This document shows positions 1,553 to 36,395 of a DNA stretch of 40,015 nucleotides, in pieces. Where the stretch lies: sequence record PV889368.1; one strand, 5' to 3'. Every line of letters starts with the position of its first letter. Position 1 is the first letter of the stretch. The notes below the pieces were generated by a model. That model was not told the DNA's origin and did not search any database. It worked only from the letters and a program-made list of their open reading frames with translations. This DNA comes from a phage. Position numbers and translations under genes: made by a program.

Positions 1553-4500
1553 CCTTGATGTGGATACCTTGCTCCTCAAACGTTCCAAGTAATAGCTTCT
1601 GGGTAATTGGGTCGTTCGGAACCAGTTCACGGAACGTATTATACATCCCGGTCATGTAGTCACGCTCGTTGACACGAGTATCAGCCTTGAGGTAGCCAGC
1701 CAAGTTGTAAGCCGAAGCACCAACGTTAGCAGCATATCCGAAAGCTGGAACCTGCTCCAAGAAGTTACCAACAACATTCATCACAGGGTCGCTTGTAGCT
1801 GCACCATACGCGATGGCACGTTCAGTCTTCTCTGTAGGTGAACGAGGTAGTATAGACGAACGGAGCATCTTAGTGTCCTCATACCCAGCGATGCCACCCA
1901 GAATGTTAGCGACCCCAAGTGGGCCACCCAGATGTGAACTACGGGACAGGGCAGCATACCCAATCATCGTCGGGTTTAGAGCTTGCTTGAGGTAGTCACG
2001 GTCTCGACCATCCTGCATAGCGTAAGCCTTGACGTGCGCCTGAGCCATGTAGTAGATACCAGCTAGACCCATAGACATCACAGTGGACAGAGCAGCGTCC
2101 ATCGCTCGGTTGTTCTTCGTGGCGTTATAGAAGGTTCGCATGGTTCGCCCATTGATGGACTTGATGACGAAGTTCTTAAACTGAAGGACAGTCTTAGCGA
2201 GAGGGCCGTAAGCCTTGGCATCCATGTTAGACAGCTTATAAGGTCGTAGTAACGTTTCATCAGCGATGGTGTCACCCATACGCCACAGGTCCATAGCCCT
2301 TGGGTCCTGACTGAACGCCTTCTTATCCTTGATGGTGTACTTACCGTCTGGACCACGAGTCACTGACTCACGGATTAGGGACTTAATTCCCTTCCACTGC
2401 TCGTCAGAGATACCAGCGGTCTTCAGCCATCGGTCATCGAACTTACGCTTACTACCAGTCAGACTATGCTCCACGATGTCAGACAGGAATCCCTGACGTC
2501 CAGCATCTAACAGGTAGTTGGTCGTACCGTTGAGGACTTTAGTGAACGGAGAGCGTACTGCAAGTTCACCAGTGTAATACTTGGCAGTCCCCAGAGCTGT
2601 AGCCGTACCACGACCGAGGTCACTGTAAGACCGCAGACGGTCGATGACATCCTGTTTAGACGGACGGATTGAGTCATCAAGTTCCTTACCGAAGAGAACA
2701 TTGTGAAGGTCCTTAATCTCTGAGGCGCCTACCTTCTTGTTACGGAAGGCTAGGTCACGGAACATCGGGACTCCATGAAGCAGCGCACGAACGTTACCAC
2801 GAGCCAGCATACCACCAATCTCCGTTAAGTTCTGAACACCCATGTAGGCATTCTTAGCGAAGAACGATAGGTCTGTCATTGTGCGCATCACGGTAGCGAA
2901 GGCTGCATCATCAGCACCATCACGTCGAGCACGACCAGTGAGAATCTTCAAGGTGTCACGTAAGGTAGATACTTCACCTTTCAACTTACCGTCATCCCCA
3001 GCCTTGTTCATCATGGTCTCAACCAAGTCCTTCATGTCCTTCGTGGTTTTGCCTGTACCAGCCATGATAGCAATATCGCCATTAACTCGACGGTTGTAGG
3101 CCGGGACAATCTTGTCCATGTCCCACTCACGAAGGTTGTTGACACTGAAGGTCTGACCGTTAGGCAGGACGATTGACATGTCACTATCGAATAGGTTACG
3201 AGCCTCAAGGAAGCTGTTGTTCTCCAGACCAACCAGACCGTTGATATTCTCTTCCATTACGGATGAGCGTTCGAACTTCTCGGTGTGAGAGATACCGTAA
3301 GCCTTATCGTTGGCGTACTTATCGACCGCAGCCGCAAGTCCTTCTGGAGTCAACGTAGGGTCAGCCTCTGAGAGTGCCTCGTCCACACGTTTCTTGACTT
3401 CAGGTCGAGACGCATAGCTTGTCAACCATGACTTCTTGATGGCCTCCTGCAACGCCTCTGGACTCCCAAGCTCCTTGATATACAGCTCCTTCATCTGTTT
3501 GCTATACACATGAGGGACGTAGGTCCCCTTGAATCGGCTACCCGGAAAGATAGACTTAGCGTCTGGGCGACCAAACATAGCTGGGTTCTCCATCATCTCA
3601 CGCTTGGCGTCAAACTGGTTCTTCAGCAGGTCATAGACTTTCAGTTCTCCCGGAGTCAGTTCAGCCTTAAGGTTTCCGCTACCATCTTCGATAGCCATAG
3701 ACACACGCTGGTAGATGTCCTGACGGAATGCTCCGGAGTCTCGCCAGAATGCTGTCTGGAAGTACGGGTCCTTTAGTGCCTCAGTAACCGCATCGTCGAT
3801 GTCATTGTAGAACCGATGGTCCACTGCACGAAGTCGCTCGAACACGTCTGACGCTGTAGTCCCAATCTTCCCGCTCGCACCTGACTGCATACCTGTGGGG
3901 GAACGCACCAAGTCAGCGGCAAGTCCGCGAATCTCAGGGTTCTCAGACCTCAAGAGCTTCAAGCCAATCTCGGTAAGTCCACCAAGGTTTACACCAGCAG
4001 CAGCACGTTCAGGCTCAATCACCTCGTCGAAGACTTGGCGTGTCTTAGGGTTTAGTGGGTTCTCGCCAATCAGGATTGAACCATCTTCCAGTCGTACACT
4101 ACCCGGCTCATTCGGAACTTCAGCGAACTTAACACCTTGATGACTAAATGTCTGCTCACCTTCCTGAATAGGGAGACGAGACAGGTCCTGACCATCAACG
4201 TTACGAGCGGTCTCACGAGCTTCCAGACGTGTAGCTGGGCCAGCGAACTCATTAGAGTTGCGGCCTAAGGCTCTGCCTAATCCATCAGCGATAGCAGTCA
4301 TACCTGCACCGAATAGAGCACCACCAAGGATAGCTTCAGCCACATGAGCATCACCACCAGCCACTGAGGTACGGGCAACCTCAGACACACCAGATAGTGC
4401 TCCAGCTTGGGCAGCCACTGTGAACATCTTGTTGACCAGTTTACCGCCTTTACCCACCTGTCCAGCGATAGGAACGTAGGTCAGTGGGTCCACGCCAGCA

Positions 4501-5439: not shown

Positions 5440-7722
5440 TTACTCCTTACCAATTAGTGCGTTTGCGATACCCTCCAGTGATACGTCATTGTACATCCCA
5501 CCGCGCTTCTCGATGTTGGCCTCTCGGTCAGCTCGACGTTTGTCACCAGCAGCTTTAGTCCCGACGATACGCGCTCGCTTGTTGGCGTCACGTTCTGCCT
5601 GAGCATATGCGGCATCTTGTGCCTTCTGCTGTTGTTCGCGGTAGAGTTTACCTACAAGTTCTTTATCGTAGCGAATACGAATAGTCCCTGTAGCGTCTTG
5701 GAGGAAGATAGAGCCGTTCTGTTCAACAACGGACAACTGAGAGTTCACTACCCAAGGGTTGGCCTTAACGAGCTGCTTACGAGCGGTGTCGATAATGTCT
5801 CGACCTACCTGCCACGACTCTGGGTTATCCCCGACCATAAGCTGGTGCTTGGACACCATGCCGATGGACTTACCGTCAGAGCCTTCAGACTGGAACGTTA
5901 CAGTGTTCTCATTCAGCCAGCGTTGAGTCTGCTGAGTTGCAGCGTCAGCGTTACCTGTACGATAGTACCATGAGTCCCAGACCTTACGAGCACTTGAATC
6001 CAGAGACGTTGGGAGGCGAGACAACTGGGTGTTCTTGGAGTCGTTCTTCAACTCCTGCCACGCCTTGTCTGACTCAATGCGCATCTCACGGCTTTGACTT
6101 GCAGCTTGCTTATCAGCTTCAATCATCGTCTGAGGGTCCAGACCCATCTTGTCCATCTGGTCGAACGTAGAGAACAACTGAGCTTGGTCAGGATACAGAG
6201 CAGCAAAACTTGAAGGGTCCTGAGTGTAGGCACGACGAAGAGATTCGAAGCGTTGCATCTTTTCTGGGTCGTACTGCCCACGGATGACCGCAGCTTGCCA
6301 CTCACCAGCAGCGTCCTGAGTCAGAGTCTGGAAGGCATTACGGAACGGACCGTTGTTAGTGTCGGCTCTTAACAATGCCACCTTCTGAGCGTCTTTAGCA
6401 GCCTCAGGGATGTCCATCTGGTCAATCTGCTGTAGCTTGGCAGACGCATAGTTGTTCATGTCTGAACGCTTGAACTCTCCTGTAGCTTCAGAGACCGGAA
6501 GGTCCTCATAGTTGGTGGACACGTTGTCCCCAGCCAGACGTCGCTGATAAACTTGGTCAATGACCAATTGCTTGTTCTGGGTCTGGATTAACTTAGTGTT
6601 CTCCTTCGCCTGTTCAGCTGACTTACGCTTGACCGCTTCCAGTAAGCTGGCTTCGGCATTAATAAGCATCTGACGCTGAGGCGTGAGTTCTTCGCCGGGT
6701 TGAAGCTGGTTGTTCTGCTCCTTGAGTTTTTGAATCTGGGCCAGACCGATGGTTGGGTCATCCTGAAGAATCGCAGACTGGACGCCTAACGCTAAGTCTT
6801 CCTGATACTTAGCCACCAGCTTGTACTCAGTTCCTTGTGCCTCAACAATAGCAGCGTTGAAGACATCAGGTCCTACAATCTCTTCGACTGTAGCGTCCAC
6901 ACCGTTAAGGGTGATTCTCTCGCCTCGTACTTGCTGTAGGAAGTTTGAGCCGCCAGACTTCTGGATTGCGTCACGGACCGTCTGGGTAATGACCTCTCGT
7001 GCTCGCTGGTCCGAAGGGATAGCAGCAGTCGTCAGTCCATCCCGAAGGTAGGCCATGAAGGTCTTTCCAGACTCAGGCGAGCGCATCAAGTCCCCATCGT
7101 TAAGGAACGAGTTCATCTCAATACGAGTGTTCAACATTGCTGTCTCTTCAGACTGCTTGCTGAAATACTTATTGAAGGACCCGTAGATAGCGATGTTTCG
7201 GTCCGTGATGTTATCGTTGAATCCCCGCTGGAAGAACTCGTCGGTAGGGTTGATACCCGCCTCTTCAGCATAGGACTTAGCGGCATCCTGAAGTCGCTGG
7301 TGGCGATACTCTTCCATGTCCTGACGTGTTCGGAACTCACCGTTCTGAATCTTAACGTTAATCTCGTCGTCTACGGCAAAGGCAGCATTACGACCAGTCT
7401 TGACTCGAAGTGCTTCCATAGCGTAAGGGTCATCCTGATACAGCAATGTGCCGTTCTGGATAGCCTCACGTCTTTGCTGAGGTGTCAGCTTACGGATAAT
7501 CTCGTTAGACCTCTCGTCAGCTCTGGTCTTCTCCTCGTCCTTGAACTGCTTGTACAATCCAGTCCCAGACTCAACGAAGTTGGTTAATGCACGAGCCAGA
7601 CCGGAGTCACCAGTCGGAGCCTGAACGTTGGCTGCTTGATAGTTGACGGCGATAGTTTTACCCGGCGCTCTGCCACGACCTATAGTCCGATTAGCAAGAG
7701 CTGATTCAATATTACTAGCCAT
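5440..7722 (-). CDS. Internal core protein C (gp15-like, 760 aa)
   Basis: Large ORF between gp14 and gp16 homologs, ATG with RBS; positional and size match to T7 gp15. Confidence 0.75.
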   Translation of the reverse strand: MASNIESALANRTIGRGRAPGKTIAVNYQAANVQAPTGDSGLARALTNFVESGTGLYKQFKDEEKTRADERSNEIIRKLTPQQRREAIQNGTLLYQDDPYAMEALRVKTGRNAAFAVDDEINVKIQNGEFRTRQDMEEYRHQRLQDAAKSYAEEAGINPTDEFFQRGFNDNITDRNIAIYGSFNKYFSKQSEETAMLNTRIEMNSFLNDGDLMRSPESGKTFMAYLRDGLTTAAIPSDQRAREVITQTVRDAIQKSGGSNFLQQVRGERITLNGVDATVEEIVGPDVFNAAIVEAQGTEYKLVAKYQEDLALGVQSAILQDDPTIGLAQIQKLKEQNNQLQPGEELTPQRQMLINAEASLLEAVKRKSAEQAKENTKLIQTQNKQLVIDQVYQRRLAGDNVSTNYEDLPVSEATGEFKRSDMNNYASAKLQQIDQMDIPEAAKDAQKVALLRADTNNGPFRNAFQTLTQDAAGEWQAAVIRGQYDPEKMQRFESLRRAYTQDPSSFAALYPDQAQLFSTFDQMDKMGLDPQTMIEADKQAASQSREMRIESDKAWQELKNDSKNTQLSRLPTSLDSSARKVWDSWYYRTGNADAATQQTQRWLNENTVTFQSEGSDGKSIGMVSKHQLMVGDNPESWQVGRDIIDTARKQLVKANPWVVNSQLSVVEQNGSIFLQDATGTIRIRYDKELVGKLYREQQQKAQDAAYAQAERDANKRARIVGTKAAGDKRRADREANIEKRGGMYNDVSLEGIANALIGKE

Positions 7723-23904: not shown

Positions 23905-24363
23905 TTAGCCTCGGTCGGAAGTGACCAGTTCGTTGGTAGTCAACCAGCGTTGCAAGTCGAAACTTGGACACGCCTTCGGTGCTATGTCATGATGTGCTTT
24001 GATTTCTGCCTGAGGATACAGGGCCTTCAGGTCAGCCAGCTTGTTGCGCAGGGAGTCCATCTGGGCTGGAGTGAAGTTAGCTTCAAACTGACCCTTAGCG
24101 TTGATTCCACCTACAAGGCAGACGCCTACAGACCGTGAGTTCCAGTCCTTAACGTGTGACCCTACGACATTTACCGGACGTCCCTCTTCCACAGTCCCAT
24201 CGCGTTTGATGATAAAGTGGTAGCCAATTGCCAGCCAGCCCTGCTGCTTATGCCACATCTCAATGGTCTCACGACCAATGTCCATAGTCGGCGGGGTCGC
24301 TGAACAGTGGACGAAGATTGCGTCTGTAGCTTGACGCGGTTTGAATTGTACCTTACTTCCCAT
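23905..24363 (-). CDS. N-acetylmuramoyl-L-alanine amidase / T7 lysozyme (gp3.5)
   Basis: VQFKPRQATDAIFVHCSAT, GYHFIIKRDGTVEEGR, GVCLVGGI, FTPAQM and C-terminal HHDIAPKACPSFDLQRW..NELVTSDRG match T7 gp3.5. Confidence 0.95.
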   Translation of the reverse strand: MGSKVQFKPRQATDAIFVHCSATPPTMDIGRETIEMWHKQQGWLAIGYHFIIKRDGTVEEGRPVNVVGSHVKDWNSRSVGVCLVGGINAKGQFEANFTPAQMDSLRNKLADLKALYPQAEIKAHHDIAPKACPSFDLQRWLTTNELVTSDRG

Positions 24364-27049: not shown

Positions 27050-27083
27050 AGCAAAGAAACCCAGCAGTCCGAAGACCACTGGG
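27050..27083 (-). terminator. Intrinsic terminator (TE-like) for host RNAP after the ligase gene
   Basis: Minus strand CCCAGUGGUC-UUCG-GACUGCUGGG (10-bp stem, UUCG loop) followed by UUUCUUUGCUU; same position as T7 TE. Confidence 0.75.
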
Positions 27084-27094
27084 TTGACGTCTAG

Positions 27095-28646: not shown

Positions 28647-28684
28647 GTGGTTGAATCTCCAGTAGTTTACGTTAGGTTAGGGTT

Positions 28685-28727
28685 AATCATGAAGGCCACG
28701 ACTTTGAGTCATGACCTTGAGTCTAAT
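28685..28727 (-). promoter_or_regulatory. Conserved late intergenic element, copy 2 (candidate RNase III site, R1.1-like position)
   Basis: aatcatgaaggccac-N-catgaccttgagtctaatc; see copies at 21680 and 38668. Confidence 0.4.
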
Positions 28728-28746
28728 CCTATAGTGATAGTTTAGG
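28724..28746 (-). promoter_or_regulatory. Phage RNAP promoter (phi1.1-like)
   Basis: Minus strand CCTAAACTATCACTATAGGATTAGAC. Confidence 0.8.
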
Positions 28747-29048: not shown

Positions 29049-31730
29049 TTAAGCGAATGCAAAGTCTGAAGACAAGATGTCTTCGATATTCAGTTCACCT
29101 TTCTTCGGAAGCTCAGGCAACTTGTCGCGCTGACTCTCGTGAAGCTGGTATTCAAACTGCTCGTAGAAGTCAAGCAGCACATCGTTGTCGCGGTATGTCT
29201 CTACCATCGTCTCACGGACACCACGGAACAGATACTCAGCGTCAGCCGGGATGGTCCCGAAGCTATCGTGAATCACTGCGAATGACATCACACCATACTT
29301 GCGGTGCGTGTGGACTACAGTCTTGCGGAGGTGGCTACCATCTTGTGAGTGGACGAAGTTCGGGCTAATGCCTGACTCCTGCTTGTGTTTGTCCAGCTCT
29401 TTCTTTGTGCCTTTGTTGACTGTAGGCTGAAGGTTGAATGACCCTAAGAACATCAGGTTCAGACGAGTGGTATCCTTCTTGCGGTATTCCTGCCATACCG
29501 GGAAACCATCAGGTGTGACCCAGTGTACCGGAAGGCAAGGCTTCAGGATTTCACCAGTCTTCTTGTCCTTCACTTCAGCAGCCAGCAGCTTGGCAGCGCC
29601 TTGAAGCCACTTCATCGCGTCAACCGCAGCAACTACGGTCACACTCACAGCCTCCCAAATCATCTTGGCCATGAAGCGAGACGCTTGGCTTGGCTCAGTG
29701 AACATAGCGCCAGACCCTGAGTCAATCGCTGGCATTACGATGTCCTCGTAAACTTGGTCTGCGAAGCCGTACTCTTTCGACCCGTAGGCCAGAGTCATGA
29801 CCGAACGCTTAGTGACCTTGCGTGACATACCGTAAGTCAGCCACTGACGGGCCAGCTCTCGTGTCCCCAGCTTGAGACGCTCGGTAATCTCACCTGTTTT
29901 CTTGTCCTCGTGAGTCACCACCTCGTTGTCCGTACCGTTAACCAGCAGGACTTTAAGTTCCTCCTCAATGCGGTCGGACACAATGCGGTAGATGTCTTGG
30001 ACCTTACCGGATGGCGTCAGGTTTACTGCATGTCCACCGATGTGGTCACGAAGCATCGCGCTGAAGTGCTGAATCCCAGAGCATGACCCATCGAACGCTA
30101 TCGGAAGCGAGCATGAGTAAGACAATCCGTGGTGCATTACGCCAGCATACTCGAAGCAGAACGCAAGGAAGCAGAACGGAGAGTCTAACTTGCCCCACCA
30201 CTCAATGCTATCCATCGGTGCTTTGGCAGCAGCCATGATGTTGTCGTGGTTGTCTTCCACCCATTTGATGCGCTCCTCGAAGGTGACTTTATCGACACCA
30301 GCACAGTTTGCACCGTGGACCTTCAGCCATTTAAAACCATCAGCGCCAATAGGCTTGCCGACTGCCAGAGTCAGGAGACCCTTCTGCATGTCGTTGCCCT
30401 GAGGGTTGAACATCGGTACAGCGTAGACGCGGCCGCGCCAATCCATGTTATATGGGAACCATATGGCCTTGAACTGAGAGAACTTGTTTGCTTGGTTAAC
30501 GATAAAGCTCAGTGATAATCTGCGTGACTGTCTGGCCTTCTCGCGGCGATAGATACCAGCAGCAGCCTTCTTCCATGCCTTGAGTTCTTCTTCAGTCTCA
30601 CCCGCATAGTCCTCAGGCTTCAGTGGTTCCATCTGAGGGATGTCATCAATAGGCGTGTTGTTCAGCTTCTCGACCATGTTCACAACGTCCAGGACCTTCT
30701 TGTTCACTTTCCAAGGTGTACTCTGAATGATGTTCACAGCGTCGTAGACTTCAGGCATGTACACGTCTTCGTAACGTGCTACCGCAGACTTAGACCCTAA
30801 GCGAATCAGTGGTAATGGTCTGCGACCTTTGGCCCAATACCCACCACCTACGACACCCGTCCACGGCTTAGGTGGAACGACGCAAGGCTGATAGACTGGT
30901 GCGATACCCGCAAGGCTGAATCCACGTTGTGCCATCTTCTTTACCCAGAAGTCTGACAGGTGGACCATCTCAACGTCAGCCGCCGCATTGCCAGCACCAT
31001 AACGCTTAAGCTCAACCAGTTGTGTAGACTGAATGACAATCTCAAGCATCTTGATGCCAACGTGTACCGCCTCGGTAGGACTCCAAGTTCCCCAAGCATC
31101 TTCCAGTTGGCCCTGCTCCAGCATGGATGTCTCAACCGCTTGCATGTAGGCTTTCTTGTAGGATGCCCCGGCTCGCTTGTTCAGGTTCTCAGCTATCGCC
31201 TTCTTGAAGTGCTCCTGCTCCTTGTCACGGATGCGACCGAAGCGGATTTCATCTTCAAGAGTGCGACCTATCGCGGAGGCCATAGGTGTAATCGGTATCC
31301 CTTCAGGCTTGACCAGCTTAGAGAGAATGACCTTCAGTATGATAACCGCAGCAGACTCGCAGGAGATGCGCAGAGAGCGGTCCTTGACAGCCTTCCCTTC
31401 AGTGCTCAACATGGTGAACGCTACGCTCGGACGAGAGATTGACAGCTTCCCGTCTGTGCCTTCATGCCACTCCTTGACGGCTTGCGCAATCTTAGGGACC
31501 AGAGTCTGCATCAAAGGCTTGGCGACCTGATTGTCTGCCAGTTCCCCGCGCTCCGTCTGGCGCTCAAGGTTCTTGATGAAACGTCGCTCGCCTTCAGTGT
31601 ATGCCTCATGCTCAAGCTGAAGCTGTTTGACTGCAAGGTCTTGCCCGTAGTGGTCAGCCAGCAGGTTAAACGGCTCAATGGCGTTCGACACATCAGAGAA
31701 GTCGTGTTTGTCAATAGAGATGACGCTCAT
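29049..31730 (-). CDS. Single-subunit DNA-dependent RNA polymerase (gp1)
   Basis: Collinear with T7 RNAP across 893 aa, e.g. FSDV...PFN.LADHYG, RFGRIRD, PCVVPPKPWTG, AIWFPYNMDWRGRVYA, DGSCSGIQHFSAMLRD, VTKRSVMTLAYGSKE, HDSFGT, C-terminal FAFA. Confidence 0.97.
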   Translation of the reverse strand: MSVISIDKHDFSDVSNAIEPFNLLADHYGQDLAVKQLQLEHEAYTEGERRFIKNLERQTERGELADNQVAKPLMQTLVPKIAQAVKEWHEGTDGKLSISRPSVAFTMLSTEGKAVKDRSLRISCESAAVIILKVILSKLVKPEGIPITPMASAIGRTLEDEIRFGRIRDKEQEHFKKAIAENLNKRAGASYKKAYMQAVETSMLEQGQLEDAWGTWSPTEAVHVGIKMLEIVIQSTQLVELKRYGAGNAAADVEMVHLSDFWVKKMAQRGFSLAGIAPVYQPCVVPPKPWTGVVGGGYWAKGRRPLPLIRLGSKSAVARYEDVYMPEVYDAVNIIQSTPWKVNKKVLDVVNMVEKLNNTPIDDIPQMEPLKPEDYAGETEEELKAWKKAAAGIYRREKARQSRRLSLSFIVNQANKFSQFKAIWFPYNMDWRGRVYAVPMFNPQGNDMQKGLLTLAVGKPIGADGFKWLKVHGANCAGVDKVTFEERIKWVEDNHDNIMAAAKAPMDSIEWWGKLDSPFCFLAFCFEYAGVMHHGLSYSCSLPIAFDGSCSGIQHFSAMLRDHIGGHAVNLTPSGKVQDIYRIVSDRIEEELKVLLVNGTDNEVVTHEDKKTGEITERLKLGTRELARQWLTYGMSRKVTKRSVMTLAYGSKEYGFADQVYEDIVMPAIDSGSGAMFTEPSQASRFMAKMIWEAVSVTVVAAVDAMKWLQGAAKLLAAEVKDKKTGEILKPCLPVHWVTPDGFPVWQEYRKKDTTRLNLMFLGSFNLQPTVNKGTKKELDKHKQESGISPNFVHSQDGSHLRKTVVHTHRKYGVMSFAVIHDSFGTIPADAEYLFRGVRETMVETYRDNDVLLDFYEQFEYQLHESQRDKLPELPKKGELNIEDILSSDFAFA

Positions 31731-31799
31731 ACTTAAAGTCCTTGTTATTAGTCTTTCACTTAGAGTCTCTTTGGTCTTTCACTTGGAGTCTTAGACCTT

Positions 31800-31822
31800 G
31801 AGTCCTATAGTGATAGTTAAGT
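31800..31822 (-). promoter_or_regulatory. Phage RNAP promoter immediately upstream of the RNAP gene
   Basis: Minus strand GACTTAACTATCACTATAGGACTCAAGG, about 75 nt upstream of the gene 1 ATG; the leader carries a duplicated AAGTGAAAGAC. Confidence 0.7.
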
Positions 31823-31827
31823 CAGAA

Positions 31828-32220
31828 TTACTTGCATATCAGAGGGTTAGCGTGAAGATGACTGAAGTCACCGTGAGTCGTGTGCTTGATGGTCGACCGT
31901 TGGTCTATCGCCTTCCAGCCTGAGACCAGAAGTTTACCGTCGTCTGTGATTGGTCGTCCACCATACGCCAGATACATCAGCTCGGACTTATGGCCCTCGG
32001 CCCGGAGTCGTGCCTGAAGTACACGGTCTCGCTCCTGCTGTTGACGCTTAGTGTGTGATGAGTGGCGGTGTACATAAGTGCCCTTTCTCCCGGTCTTCTC
32101 CCAGTAGTTGCGGCCACGCGAGTCAGTTCCAACATACTTCCACTCTACGCCGTTCTTATCAGTGAATTTGCGAAACGCTAGGGTTGAGTCCATTGCGTGT
32201 ACCAGATTTAACATATTCAT
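31828..32220 (-). CDS. Hypothetical early protein (130 aa) where T7 has the gp0.7 kinase; no kinase motifs seen
   Basis: ATG with GGGAG RBS; TAATG overlap with the upstream ORF. Confidence 0.6.
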   Translation of the reverse strand: MNMLNLVHAMDSTLAFRKFTDKNGVEWKYVGTDSRGRNYWEKTGRKGTYVHRHSSHTKRQQQERDRVLQARLRAEGHKSELMYLAYGGRPITDDGKLLVSGWKAIDQRSTIKHTTHGDFSHLHANPLICK

Positions 32221-32420: not shown

Positions 32421-32588
32421 TTACCCCGCCAGTCCAATCCATATCAGTAGACCGCGCACGACCCCTACCGGAGAGAATATTATATCCACTGCCAGCCAGC
32501 CAAGACGCAGTGCATTCCCATCAGCTATGACCGCAGTCAGCCAAGACAGAATGATGGTGACGTAAAGTGCGATGACTGTAAGTTTCAT
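32421..32588 (-). CDS. Small early membrane protein (55 aa, two predicted TM helices)
   Basis: Not in the ORF track; ATG 32588 with AGGAG RBS; MKLTVIALYVTIILSWLTAVIADG...VGVVRGLLIWIGLAG. Confidence 0.45.
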   Translation of the reverse strand: MKLTVIALYVTIILSWLTAVIADGNALRLGWLAVDIIFSPVGVVRGLLIWIGLAG

Positions 32589-32594
32589 AGTTAA

Positions 32595-32660
32595 CTCCTA
32601 TCAATTTAAGTGATAATCTTTGAGGCCACATATCAGTTAGATGACCTCTCGTCTATCACT
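32595..32660 (-). promoter_or_regulatory. Conserved early intergenic element, copy D
   Basis: Shares ...gaggccac...atcagt...gacct...tctatcactc... with copies at 33045, 33785 and 34375; lies in the 5' leader of the downstream ORF. Confidence 0.4.
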
Positions 32661-34450: not shown

Positions 34451-34550
34451 TTAAGAGTTTATCCAGATTGTTAAAGAGCATTCGCGTTGGCTGTCGTCGC
34501 CGTGCTATCCCGTTTCAGTGTTGGGACTCACCGTCGTTTCAGTGTGGTAC

Positions 34551-34579
34551 AGCTTACAGCTTTTAAAGGAGGCTGTCAA
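34551..34579 (-). promoter_or_regulatory. Candidate host sigma70 early promoter (A-type), proximal
   Basis: Minus strand TTGACA, 17-nt spacer, TAAGCT, then GTACCAC; resembles T7 A2/A3 (TTGACA...TAAGAT). Confidence 0.5.
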
Positions 34580-34697
34580 CCTGTTATTCTTTTATGCGGT
34601 GAGTGACCGAATTCGACTCACAGCTGGTGCCTTATCCTTGGCTGGTCTCGGGCAGGCTTCTCGGTTCCTATCCCTACGCCATCTTGCTACGTGGTAC

Positions 34698-34727
34698 ATA
34701 CTACTTTAAGTCGGTACTACTTGTCAA
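34698..34727 (-). promoter_or_regulatory. Candidate host sigma70 early promoter (A-type), distal
   Basis: Minus strand TTGACA, 18-nt spacer, TAGTAT, then GTACCAC; same downstream GTACCAC as the proximal copy. Confidence 0.5.
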
Positions 34728-34939
34728 CTACTTTCTGTCATCTGCCTGTTGTTCGTATGACTTATCAGGCTGTCTACTTAACCGGGATGACCCGGCGTCT
34801 TCACTATCCGGTTGTTGCCGTGTCGTGTTGACGGAAGCTATTAAGCCACAGTCGATACCTATAGTCAATAGTCAATTTGAAATAATATTGATTAAGCTAT
34901 CGTCGGCCTCATAGTGACTAAGAAGATAGTCTTTGACTA

Positions 34940-35460
34940 ACATGTATTTGACCTTAAGTCTATAGCTTTGTGTCTATTAACTGTAGGTCTTTGACTGTAG
35001 GTTAATCGGATTAACTGGTAGATGACGTAAGGTTGATGACTTGAGGTGATAGGTTGATACAGATAGAGACTCAGAGAAGACAAATAGTCCCAACCTATCG
35101 TCTCAGCCCCAACCGATAGTCATGACCTATCGTTGACCTGAAGTCTTGACCATCGGTCCAACCTTATGATAGACTGGGGTGGGCCTTTGGTCTGGACTAA
35201 AAGAGGGCCTATGGGGAGACTTGAGGTTCTTGAACTGTGAGATGTGGTCTCAAACTTTTGGTCCAAAACTCATCGAAGACTGTAGGTGGCAGCTACTGTA
35301 GGTCAAGGACCGTAGGTCAGGCGACACTAGGATAGACCAATAAGTAGGATGACCCTAAGTGAGCTTCTATTAAGGTGTTACCTAAAGTCCTTGACTACAG
35401 TAGCTAAGGTCAGTAGAGTGAGTCTTTATCCACGTACTGACCTTAGGTCTTCAGCCTTCG
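34940..35460. repeat. Non-coding region rich in short dispersed repeats; likely contains the genome termini / concatemer junction
   Basis: Many copies of CTGTAGGTC, ACCGTAGGTC, CCTTAGGTC, CCTAAAGTCC and similar within ~500 bp lacking ORFs, placed between the phiOR/19.5 end and the early promoters, as with T7 terminal short repeats. Confidence 0.5.
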
Positions 35461-35852: not shown

Positions 35853-36395
35853 TTACTTGTGGTTTCTATGGGTCCTATCACGCTTAGGGGACCGTCGGTT
35901 TACTGCGTATTCCTTGTGCTTCTCAGTGCGTAGAGCATCAAGCCACACCTCTAGTTCCTCTATTGAATCTGAGGTCTTCGTGAAGCACTTACCTTGTAGG
36001 CGCAACTGAGCGCGATACTTTCCGGTAGGCTTGAAAAAGCTGATACCTTTGGGTAGACCATTAGTCTCGCCACCTCCTGAGTTCCATCTGTTCTCTAATG
36101 CTGTTACTAACCTGTAGTTATCTGGCCTGTCGTCAAGTCTATCACCATTGATATGGTCAACCATCATGCCAGAAGGTATACGACCCACTACTAGGCTGTA
36201 GATGATTCTGGCACGCCTATAGCGGCTACCAAGAACCTTCACGATTGCGTACCCAGACGGATGGACTGAATGTCCCATGACCTCGCCTGGCTTCTTGTTA
36301 GAGCCTTTATAGGGCTTCTTGCACACCAACTCACCATCTACATAAGCATAGTGATTAAAGAGGGCCACCCTGTCGATGGCCTTCTGTTTACTCAT
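35853..36395 (-). CDS. HNH homing endonuclease with an AP2-like DNA-binding domain (180 aa)
   Basis: HNH motif region VDHINGDRLDDRPDNYRLVTALENRWN; GISFFKPTGKYRAQLRLQGK resembles an AP2 domain; ATG with GGAGGA RBS 14 nt after the terminase stop. Confidence 0.8.
   Translation of the reverse strand: MSKQKAIDRVALFNHYAYVDGELVCKKPYKGSNKKPGEVMGHSVHPSGYAIVKVLGSRYRRARIIYSLVVGRIPSGMMVDHINGDRLDDRPDNYRLVTALENRWNSGGGETNGLPKGISFFKPTGKYRAQLRLQGKCFTKTSDSIEELEVWLDALRTEKHKEYAVNRRSPKRDRTHRNHK

What the first reader, a model, noticed from the sequence alone, without database searches (positions are those of the whole stretch)
31741..31823. Phage-type promoter directly upstream of the RNA polymerase gene
A full match to the phage promoter motif (TTAACTATCACTATAGGAC) lies ~75 nt upstream of the gene 1 start. 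In T7 gene 1 is transcribed only by host RNAP and the first phage promoters lie downstream of gene 1. A phage promoter in front of the polymerase gene would create positive autoregulation. The leader also contains a tandem AAGTGAAAGAC repeat.
Basis: partly seen in the sequence, partly recalled or inferred. Interest (0 to 1): 0.5.

Follow-up and report, generated by a model that had tools for sequence, protein, structure and literature searches.

The report
Phage promoter before its own polymerase gene
The window is a K1F-like (Kayfunavirus) relative of phage T7. It carries a real, strongly conserved promoter for its own RNA polymerase just in front of the polymerase gene, which probably lets the enzyme boost its own production. 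The same site is already annotated in close relatives, so it is a known trait of this group and not a discovery.

Summary
On the minus strand, TTAACTATCACTATAGGAC lies at 31820..31802. The inferred start (+1) is 31805, 75 nt before the ATG of the 893-aa RNA polymerase gene (31730..29049). It is one of 11 same-strand copies of the phage promoter in a permuted Kayfunavirus genome, where chance expects none.

The site behaves like a working promoter:
- Its score is mid-range for the genome's promoter set.
- It is invariant across 15 distinct K1F-clade sequences, while its flanks vary.
- All 20 scorable Kayfunavirus/CR8-type loci have it, and none of 57 T7/T3/K11-type loci do.
- Where a lineage changed promoter specificity (GW1, CR8), this site changed too, together with the polymerase specificity loop.

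It is not new. GenBank records for EcoDS1 and CR8 annotate it as a phage or predicted promoter, and PE3-1 annotates the same site but labels it a host promoter. Positive feedback is a sound inference but untested here: only gene 1 and a 71-codon ORF lie before the next phage promoter. The same logic has been proposed for phage LUZ100 and engineered as T7 autogenes.

The repeat is a 21-nt unit present twice at 23-nt spacing in an unstructured leader. That leader most resembles the T7 phi1.1B leader, which (from my own knowledge) is part of the T7 replication origin.

The parts
31800..31822 (-). Phage RNA polymerase promoter, positions -17 to +6 (ACTTAACTATCACTATA|GGACTC); inferred start (+1) at 31805
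   Evidence: Exact match. Leave-one-out score 31.7 bits against a range of 25.5-36.1 for the 11 promoters of the window. 0 of 23 columns vary in 15 distinct K1F-clade sequences. The homologous site is annotated in EcoDS1, PE3-1 and CR8.
31731..31805 (-). 75-nt 5' leader of the predicted phage-polymerase transcript of gene 1; A-rich (32 of 75 bases are A; 61% A+T) and unstructured
   Evidence: Composition. Folding z-scores +0.41 and +0.27. The consensus fold of 8 relatives gives -2.8 kcal/mol with no compensatory pairs. No Rfam match.
31771..31791 (-). Direct repeat, copy 1 (AGACTCCAAGTGAAAGACCAA)
31748..31768 (-). Direct repeat, copy 2 (AGACTCTAAGTGAAAGACTAA), 23 nt downstream of copy 1
31739..31743 (-). 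Shine-Dalgarno AAGGA, 8 nt before the ATG. The stretch AGGACTTTAAGT-ATG is shared with T7 gene 1.1.
   Evidence: Read from the sequence. The SD-to-ATG block is invariant in the clade.
29049..31730 (-). Gene 1: single-subunit RNA polymerase, 893 aa
   Evidence: Pfam RNA_pol 1.3e-106 and RPOL_N 4.3e-14. 99.3% identical to the polymerase of Escherichia phage vB_EcoP_SP7 and about 63% to that of T7.
31828..32220 (-). Upstream early ORF (130 aa, at the position of gene 0.38). Its stop codon lies 5 nt before the promoter.
   Evidence: Position is homologous to gp0.38 of EcoDS1 and PE3-1. No Pfam family.
34543..34868 (-). Cluster of three sigma-70-type early host promoters that should give the first gene 1 transcripts by read-through
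   Evidence: Homology to the three 'host RNAP promoter' features of EcoDS1. TTGACA-18-TAGTAT at 34727..34698. No terminator-like site on the minus strand between here and gene 1.
28724..28746 (-). Next phage promoter downstream (phi1.1-type, +1 at 28729), followed by a hairpin homologous to the one in the T7 phi1.1A leader
27058..27085 (-). Early terminator hairpin (TE homologue) after the ligase gene; the expected end of host-polymerase early transcripts
   Evidence: Homology to the EcoDS1 feature 'TE'
23905..24363 (-). gp3.5-type amidase (T7 lysozyme family), the likely brake on the polymerase
   Evidence: Pfam Amidase_2 1.6e-16. Its role as a polymerase inhibitor is inferred from T7 (own knowledge).

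Best explanation
The site is a genuine class-II-type promoter for the phage's own T7-like RNA polymerase, placed 75 nt before gene 1. It is a conserved trait of Kayfunavirus and its sister genus Caroctavirus.

Proposed sequence of events:
1. Shown from sequence: host RNA polymerase starts at three sigma-70 promoters near the left end. No terminator-like site lies between them and gene 1, so it should read through the early genes and gene 1 to the TE hairpin after the ligase gene. This would make the first polymerase.
2. Inferred: the new phage polymerase recognises this promoter and makes a transcript with an unstructured, A-rich 75-nt leader and a strong ribosome-binding site.
3. Inferred: gene 1 therefore joins the phage polymerase's own regulon. 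This gives positive feedback, and polymerase synthesis can continue after the gp2-type inhibitor has shut off host transcription.
4. Inferred from T7 biology: the loop is probably held in check by the gp3.5 amidase/lysozyme.

Only gene 1 and a 71-codon ORF lie between this promoter and the next phage promoter. The one thing this position adds is therefore phage-polymerase transcription of gene 1 itself.
For: - Match to the genome's own promoter set: exact match, with 10-11 copies on the coding strand only and 0 expected by chance. Positions -13 to +2 equal the consensus, and the leave-one-out score is mid-range (31.7 bits; range 25.5-36.1).
- Purifying selection: 0 of 23 promoter columns vary in 15 distinct K1F-clade sequences. 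By comparison, 4 of 8 columns vary in the adjacent spacer and 22% in the upstream coding sequence.
- Clade-wide presence: all 21 IMG/VR loci with polymerase at least 78% identical have a phage-type promoter 75-102 nt before gene 1. In a motif-blind test, 20 of 20 such loci share a 14-19-nt exact word between the region upstream and the region downstream of gene 1. In 57 of 57 T7/T3/K11-type loci the longest shared word is 8-12 nt and is not promoter-like.
- Co-variation with specificity: GW1-type genomes use AAACCCTCACTATA at all 12 promoters, including this one, and CR8 uses AAGGAAGGTACACTATA at all 11. The polymerase specificity loops differ in step: N/N/Q in the window, D/R/Q in GW1, K and a divergent loop in CR8.
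- Independent annotators marked the same site in EcoDS1 ('phi'), CR8 ('predicted promoter') and PE3-1.
- A polymerase carrying the K1F specificity loop drives a promoter carrying the K1F-family consensus block in vivo (PMC3458549).
- No sigma-70-like site or terminator-like site lies at or just upstream of the promoter.
- Precedent: in phage LUZ100, promoter phi1 directly upstream of the polymerase gene was mapped by ONT-cappable-seq, and a positive feedback loop was proposed (PMC10134795). Engineered T7 autogenes work on the same principle (PMC6395690 and PMC1500874, listed).
Against: - No transcript 5' end, in vitro initiation or expression measurement exists for this site in any source I could read. 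The K1F genome paper (PMC1317022) is not held.
- In the Ro45lw subclade the site has A at -2 (TAAAGG) where most promoters of that genome have T, and the record's authors did not annotate it. Strength may therefore differ between lineages.
- The T7, T3, BA14, K11 and ICP3 types do without such a promoter, so it is not essential to the T7 way of life.
- The leader's similarity to the T7 phi1.1B leader allows a replication role, instead of or in addition to this one.
Confidence: 0.75

Rival explanations
1. The promoter and its reiterated, moderately A+T-rich leader act mainly as a transcription-primed replication origin. They would be the counterpart of the T7 primary origin (phi1.1A/B plus an A+T-rich region), placed in this lineage before gene 1 instead of after it. 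Autoregulation would then be a side effect. The two roles do not exclude each other.
For: Among 17 leaders tested (10 from the window, 7 from T7), the gene 1 leader aligns best with the T7 phi1.1B-to-gene 1.1 leader: global score 23.5, z = 7.2, 0 of 1000 shuffles as good; the next best has z = 3.6. A leader profile finds weak (E 0.056 or higher) plus-strand hits at that same position in 8 T7-type loci. Both leaders contain an internal direct repeat with 22-23-nt spacing. Downstream of gene 1 the window has only a phi1.1A-type module with its hairpin and no phi1.1B-type module. That the phi1.1B leader is the A+T-rich part of the T7 primary origin is my own knowledge (Saito et al. 1980; Fuller and Richardson 1985) and was not checked here.
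Against: A+T content is only 61-66%. That is no higher than several other promoter leaders in the window (the phi6.5-type leader reaches 70%) and lower than the 71% of the T7 leader. The profile hits are not significant on their own. Part of the similarity is the shared ribosome-binding block AGGACTTTAAGT. No replication data exist.
Confidence: 0.15
2. It is an ordinary middle-gene promoter that happens to sit one gene further left. Its value would be extra phage-polymerase transcription of the genes after gene 1 (1.1, 1.2, ligase and beyond), or a replacement for the missing phiOL. It would have no meaningful effect on polymerase level.
For: T7-type polymerases read through the host terminator TE (own knowledge), so transcripts would continue into the middle genes. 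Kayfunavirus genomes lack a phiOL at the left end, whereas T7 and BA14 have one.
Against: Another full-strength phage promoter already lies just after gene 1 (+1 at 28729), so the only sequence added is gene 1 plus a 71-codon ORF. The promoter has been kept at the same distance from gene 1 across three specificity changes. Any active promoter at this position must transcribe gene 1.
Confidence: 0.08
3. It is a host (sigma-70) promoter, as the PE3-1 record labels it, or an RNase III processing site like R1 before T7 gene 1, or a chance match.
For: The PE3-1 feature note reads 'host RNAP promoter'. T7 has E. coli promoter C, and from my own knowledge an RNase III site, at the equivalent position.
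Against: The PE3-1 feature spans exactly the 23-bp phage promoter. No sigma-70-like hexamer pair lies between 31800 and 32570 on the minus strand. No stable or conserved hairpin was found. The chance expectation is 0.00.
Confidence: 0.02

Closest known systems
The annotated promoter upstream of gene 1 in Escherichia phage EcoDS1 (EU734172, feature 'promoter, phi', 2244-2266). The same site is annotated in PE3-1 (KJ748011) and Citrobacter phage CR8 (HG818824).
   Same: Homologous site at the same distance from the ATG (75 nt; 87 nt in CR8). The 23-bp sequence is identical in EcoDS1 and PE3-1, the leader and ribosome-binding site are the same, and the flanking genes (0.38 and 1) are the same.
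   Different: Nothing material. The window is another genome of the same genus. CR8 carries a different specificity block (AAGGAAGGTACACTATA).
Promoter phi1 of Pseudomonas phage LUZ100 (Autographiviridae), PMC10134795
   Same: A phage-specific promoter directly upstream of the phage polymerase gene. Host read-through makes the first polymerase, which then amplifies its own transcription.
   Different: LUZ100 is a distant relative with temperate features. Its promoter was mapped experimentally and is proposed to be repressed by a MarR-like protein. No repressor or integrase is evident in the K1F-type genomes (gene lists).
T7 phiOL and the T7 gene 1 upstream region (NC_001604)
   Same: A phage promoter upstream of gene 1 on the same strand, so phage-polymerase transcripts can in principle cross gene 1.
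   Different: phiOL lies 2.8 kb upstream, before the host promoters. The slot immediately before T7 gene 1 holds the minor E. coli promoter C (3113). Kayfunavirus genomes have no phiOL.
Engineered T7 autogenes (T7 polymerase gene under a T7 promoter; Dubendorff and Studier 1991, from my own knowledge; later uses in PMC6395690 and PMC1500874)
   Same: A cognate promoter driving the polymerase gene, giving a self-amplifying loop.
   Different: Those are artificial constructs. Here the arrangement is natural, conserved across a genus, and embedded in a timed lytic programme.
T7 phi1.1B promoter with the gene 1.1 leader
   Same: Best sequence match to the window's leader, with a similar internal repeat and an identical ribosome-binding block.
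   Different: It lies after gene 1 and drives gene 1.1. It is more A+T-rich (71% against 61%). An origin function is not established for the window's element.

Membership tests
T7-group (Studiervirinae) phage RNA polymerase promoter | A 23-bp element (-17 to +6) that matches the multi-copy consensus of the same genome | tested here: met
   Exact 19-mer. 11 copies against 0 expected. Leave-one-out score 31.7 bits, within the range 25.5-36.1.
T7-group (Studiervirinae) phage RNA polymerase promoter | Lies on the transcribed strand, in an intergenic gap or at the 3' end of a gene, pointing at the next gene | tested here: met
   Minus strand like all the genes. It starts 5 nt after the stop of the 0.38-like ORF and 75 nt before gene 1.
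T7-group (Studiervirinae) phage RNA polymerase promoter | The specificity block (about -12 to -8) matches the specificity loop of the cognate polymerase and changes with it | tested here: met
   Three promoter dialects (window/EcoDS1, GW1, CR8). The gene 1 site carries the local dialect each time, and the loops differ in step.
T7-group (Studiervirinae) phage RNA polymerase promoter | Initiation by the phage polymerase at +1 | not testable with these tools
   No transcript data. The only related experiment is that a K1F-loop polymerase drives a K1F-consensus promoter (PMC3458549).
Autogene / positive feedback on the polymerase gene | A cognate promoter upstream of the polymerase gene with no terminator in between | tested here: met
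   75-nt unstructured leader with no terminator-like site.
Autogene / positive feedback on the polymerase gene | The polymerase raises the level of its own mRNA | not testable with these tools
   Needs expression measurements with and without the promoter.
T7-type primary replication origin (phage promoter plus A+T-rich region) | A phage promoter followed by a strongly A+T-rich stretch of about 60 bp | tested here: not met
   The best 61-nt window is 66% A+T, not exceptional among the window's leaders. The T7 leader is 71% overall.
T7-type primary replication origin (phage promoter plus A+T-rich region) | Sequence relationship to the T7 phi1.1B origin leader | tested here: inconclusive
   Pairwise z = 7.2, the best of 17 leaders, but profile E-values are 0.056 or higher.
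RNase III processing site (as R1 before T7 gene 1) | A stable, conserved hairpin | tested here: not met
   z-scores +0.41 and +0.27. Consensus fold -2.8 kcal/mol with no compensatory pairs.
Sigma-70 host promoter (PE3-1 label; analogue of T7 promoter C) | -35 and -10 hexamers with 16-18-nt spacing | tested here: not met
   No such site near 31800-31900. The nearest on the minus strand is at 32604..32575.

The most novel reading that the evidence does not exclude
The promoter and its reiterated leader are the Kayfunavirus counterpart of the T7 phi1.1B/A+T-rich origin module, moved to the 5' side of gene 1. One element would then both prime DNA replication and drive the polymerase gene, which would tie polymerase supply to the start of replication. 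The conserved pair of about 17-21-nt 'GACTYYAAGTG..GAC' units would be functional sites (for priming, or as translational enhancers) and not a neutral duplication.
Probability: 0.12. Interest if true: 0.55.

Novelty: already known. Interest (0 to 1): 0.28.

Why it matters
It shows that a whole genus of T7 relatives wires the polymerase gene differently from the textbook T7 scheme. In T7, gene 1 is served by host promoters (phiOL lies far upstream). In this genus, gene 1 sits directly behind a cognate phage promoter, which makes it a natural autogene. This bears on three things: how quickly these phages commit to the middle and late programme, how they tolerate shut-off of the host polymerase, and the use of the K1F polymerase and promoter pair in synthetic biology. 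The way the site tracks changes in polymerase specificity is a clear natural example of a promoter co-evolving with its polymerase. The site itself is already in public annotations, and the feedback idea has precedent, so the value lies in documenting it.

Tried and rejected
- Structured RNA or RNase III site in the leader: rejected. Folding z-scores are +0.41 and +0.27, the consensus fold has no covariation, and there is no Rfam hit.
- Host sigma-70 promoter at the site, as the PE3-1 label says: rejected.
- Strongly A+T-rich origin-like stretch: not found; A+T is only 61-66%.
- Profile search for the leader in other genera: only weak hits (E 0.056 or higher), though they fall at a consistent position.
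- K1F genome paper (Scholl and Merril 2005) and the promoter-model paper (Chen and Schneider 2005): not held, so I could not check whether they discuss this promoter.
- Papers on Kayfunavirus or K1F: none discusses the regulatory meaning of the site. One notes a promoter repeat at the 3' end of the gene numbered just before the polymerase gene (PMC13298934). The others say nothing relevant.
- One PHROGs scan failed on a wrong coordinate and was not repeated.

Full report
**What the window is.** All long ORFs lie on the minus strand. The 4-kb region around the finding is about 94-95% identical to Kayfunavirus genomes such as K1F, PE3-1, JSS1 and CLB_P1. The 893-aa ORF at 31730..29049 is a single-subunit RNA polymerase (Pfam RNA_pol 1.3e-106, RPOL_N 4.3e-14). 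It is 99.3% identical to the polymerase of Escherichia phage vB_EcoP_SP7 and about 63% identical to that of T7. Comparison with the annotated EcoDS1 genome shows that the window is a circularly permuted complete genome:
- The left terminal repeat begins near 35242.
- Three host-type promoters lie at about 34868-34543.
- An ocr gene and small early genes follow, then gene 1.
- The early terminator hairpin lies after the ligase gene, at 27085..27058.

**Check of the observation.** The 19-mer TTAACTATCACTATAGGAC is at 31820..31802 on the minus strand with no mismatch. With up to three mismatches there are 10 sites, all on the minus strand, against 0.00 expected. A core search adds an eleventh site. 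By analogy with T7 promoters the start is G 31805, and the ATG of gene 1 is at 31730, so the leader is 75 nt. The upstream ORF ends at 31828, 5 nt before promoter position -17. The 11-mer AAGTGAAAGAC occurs twice, at 31784..31774 and 31761..31751. Both copies sit inside a 21-nt unit repeated at a 23-nt period, and a 16/17 match was reached in 0 of 300 shuffles. The word 'tandem' should be read as a 23-nt period.

**Is it a real promoter?** Five lines of sequence evidence say yes.
- *Score.* I derived the promoter set of six complete genomes: the window, EcoDS1, PE3-1, Ro45lw, GW1 and CR8. Each has 11-12 sites, all on the coding strand and at the same relative positions (before genes 1, 1.1, 1.6, 2.5, 4, 6.5, 9, 10, 13 and 17, plus phiOR). 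The gene 1 site scores in the middle of each set; in the window it scores 31.7 bits against a range of 25.5-36.1. It equals the consensus from -13 to +2 and differs only at -17, -14 and +4 to +6. T at -14 is shared with two other promoters of the window.
- *Conservation within the clade.* Across 15 distinct K1F-clade sequences, none of the 23 promoter columns varies. In the same alignment 4 of 8 columns vary in the adjacent spacer, 22% in the upstream coding sequence, 9% in the rest of the leader and 11% at the start of gene 1.
- *Distribution.* All 21 IMG/VR loci whose polymerase is at least 78% identical carry a phage-type promoter 75-102 nt before gene 1. In a motif-blind test, 20 of 20 such loci share a 14-19-nt exact word, which is the promoter, between the 300 nt upstream and the region downstream of gene 1. 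In 57 of 57 T7/T3/K11-type loci the longest shared word is 8-12 nt and is not promoter-like. In GenBank, 220 records have a polymerase at least 80% identical, and 221 match the promoter-leader region, 219 of them over at least 80% of its length.
- *Co-variation.* The site follows changes in polymerase specificity. The GW1 lineage uses AAACCCTCACTATA and CR8 (genus Caroctavirus) uses AAGGAAGGTACACTATA. In both, the site before gene 1 carries the local version. The polymerase specificity loops differ in step at the positions equivalent to T7 N748, R756 and Q758: N, N, Q in the window and EcoDS1; D, R, Q (as in T3) in GW1; K and a divergent loop in CR8. A relic or chance site would not keep pace in this way.
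- *Experimental link.* A T7 polymerase carrying the K1F specificity loop drives a promoter carrying the K1F-family consensus block in vivo (PMC3458549).

**What it is not.**
- No sigma-70-like hexamer pair lies near the site. The 'host RNAP promoter' note in the PE3-1 record, which spans exactly the 23-bp phage element, therefore looks like a labelling slip.
- The leader has no significant or conserved secondary structure and no Rfam match. It is not an RNase III site of the kind that, from my own knowledge, precedes T7 gene 1.

**How it most likely works.**
- Shown from sequence: host promoters at the left end, no terminator-like site before gene 1, a TE homologue after the ligase gene, the phage promoter directly before gene 1, and the next phage promoter only after gene 1 (+1 at 28729). 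Only gene 1 and a 71-codon ORF lie between the two.
- Inferred: host polymerase makes the first gene 1 mRNA. The new phage polymerase then starts at 31805 and transcribes its own gene, which gives positive feedback and allows polymerase synthesis to continue after the host polymerase is shut off.
- Inferred from T7 biology: the A-rich, unstructured leader and the AAGGA ribosome-binding site should favour translation, and the gp3.5 amidase (24363..23905) is the likely brake.
- Because another promoter follows gene 1 immediately, this position adds nothing except phage-polymerase transcription of gene 1. That is the main argument for autoregulation over a general role in middle-gene transcription.

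**Comparison with what is known.**
- The T7 RefSeq record lists phiOL at nt 405, E. coli promoter C at 3113, gene 1 at 3171 and phi1.1A at 5848. It is true that T7 has no phage promoter adjacent to gene 1.
- BA14 has phiOL and nothing before gene 1. The vibriophage JSF24 (ICP3 type) also has nothing there. Kayfunavirus genomes have no phiOL.
- The site is already annotated: as promoter 'phi' in EcoDS1, as 'predicted promoter' in CR8, and in PE3-1. A 2026 paper on a Kayfunavirus notes a promoter repeat at the 3' end of the gene numbered just before the polymerase gene, without comment (PMC13298934).
- The regulatory idea has precedent. In LUZ100 a mapped phage promoter directly upstream of the polymerase gene was proposed to form a positive feedback loop (PMC10134795). 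Engineered T7 autogenes use the same principle.
- Pseudomonas phage Eino (Pifdecavirus) has a candidate phage-type promoter about 120 nt before its polymerase gene, so the arrangement recurs within the subfamily.
- I could not read the K1F genome paper.

**The leader and a rival reading.** Of 17 promoter leaders compared, the window's gene 1 leader is most like the T7 phi1.1B-to-gene 1.1 leader: global score 23.5, z = 7.2, with the next best at z = 3.6. A leader profile gives weak plus-strand hits at that same position in eight T7-type loci. Both leaders contain an internal direct repeat at 22-23-nt spacing, and leaders from Ro45lw, GW1 and CR8 also carry reiterated units of the GACTYYAAG type. 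Downstream of gene 1 the window has only a homologue of T7 phi1.1A with its hairpin, and no phi1.1B-type module. From my own knowledge, the T7 phi1.1B leader is the A+T-rich part of the primary replication origin. The element could therefore also serve in transcription-primed replication. Against this, A+T content is only 61-66%, which is unexceptional among the window's leaders, and the profile hits are not significant. I rate this reading at about 0.12-0.15. It does not exclude autoregulation.

**Verdict.** Positive autoregulation of the polymerase gene is the most likely consequence but remains untested. The feature is a known, annotated trait of Kayfunavirus and Caroctavirus, and the regulatory logic is already described elsewhere. 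Novelty: already known. Interest: modest (0.28).

Noticed in passing
window 31731..31805 (-) compared with L090 (T7) 5923..6006: The gene 1 leader is most similar to the T7 phi1.1B-to-gene 1.1 leader (z = 7.2; next best of 17 leaders z = 3.6). The two share the block AGGACTTTAAGT-ATG and an internal direct repeat at 22-23-nt spacing.
   Followed up: partly
window 28729..28670 (-): The leader of the phi1.1-type promoter after gene 1 forms a hairpin (-17.7 kcal/mol). It is homologous to the T7 phi1.1A leader, which from my own knowledge carries the R1.1 RNase III site: ACTCAAGGTCAT...GTGGCCTT.ATGATT. The window has no second, phi1.1B-type promoter there.
   Followed up: partly
L087 (Cronobacter phage GW1), L020, L040: Within Kayfunavirus, the GW1 lineage has switched all 12 promoters to a T3-like block (AAACCCTCACTATA). 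Its polymerase specificity loop has D and R where the K1F type has N and N.
   Followed up: partly
L089 (Ro45lw) 2400..2422; L014-L016, L022, L023: In the Ro45lw subclade the promoter before gene 1 has A at -2 (CACTAAAGG) where most promoters of that genome have T, and the leader is 81 nt. The GenBank record annotates other promoters but not this one.
   Followed up: partly
L005 / L001 (PE3-1, KJ748011) 2874..2896: The record labels the 23-bp phage-type promoter before gene 1 as 'host RNAP promoter', which looks like a mislabel.
   Followed up: yes
L093 (Pseudomonas phage vB_PpuP-Eino) about 3855..3880: A copy of that phage's own repeated promoter-like motif (AAAACCCTCACCCAAACAGG) lies at the end of the gene before the polymerase gene, about 120 nt before its ATG at 3976. 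The arrangement therefore recurs outside Kayfunavirus.
   Followed up: partly
window 35242..35059 (-), and the window ends: The window is a circularly permuted complete genome. A terminal-repeat homologue begins at 35242 and is followed by the concatemer-junction motif CTATCTGT at about 35066..35059. The window ends appear to fall inside the gene that follows the phi17 promoter (+1 at 1535), because no complete ORF is listed after it.
   Followed up: partly
window 35853..36395 (-): A 180-aa ORF lies directly after the 587-aa ORF that occupies the gene 19 (terminase) position. PE3-1 and Ro45lw annotate an HNH endonuclease at the equivalent position. I did not test this in the window.
   Followed up: no
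window 23653 (+1, minus strand): The promoter before the primase/helicase gene is the weakest of the set (CACCTTAGG; 25.5 bits). The same deviation is kept in EcoDS1, PE3-1 and Ro45lw, which suggests a deliberately weak promoter.
   Followed up: no
L092 (Vibrio phage JSF24) 1..216: About 18 tandem copies of a 12-nt unit (CTCACATTAAGA / CTCACATCAAGA) lie at the start of the locus, about 1.8-2.0 kb upstream of the polymerase gene.
   Followed up: no
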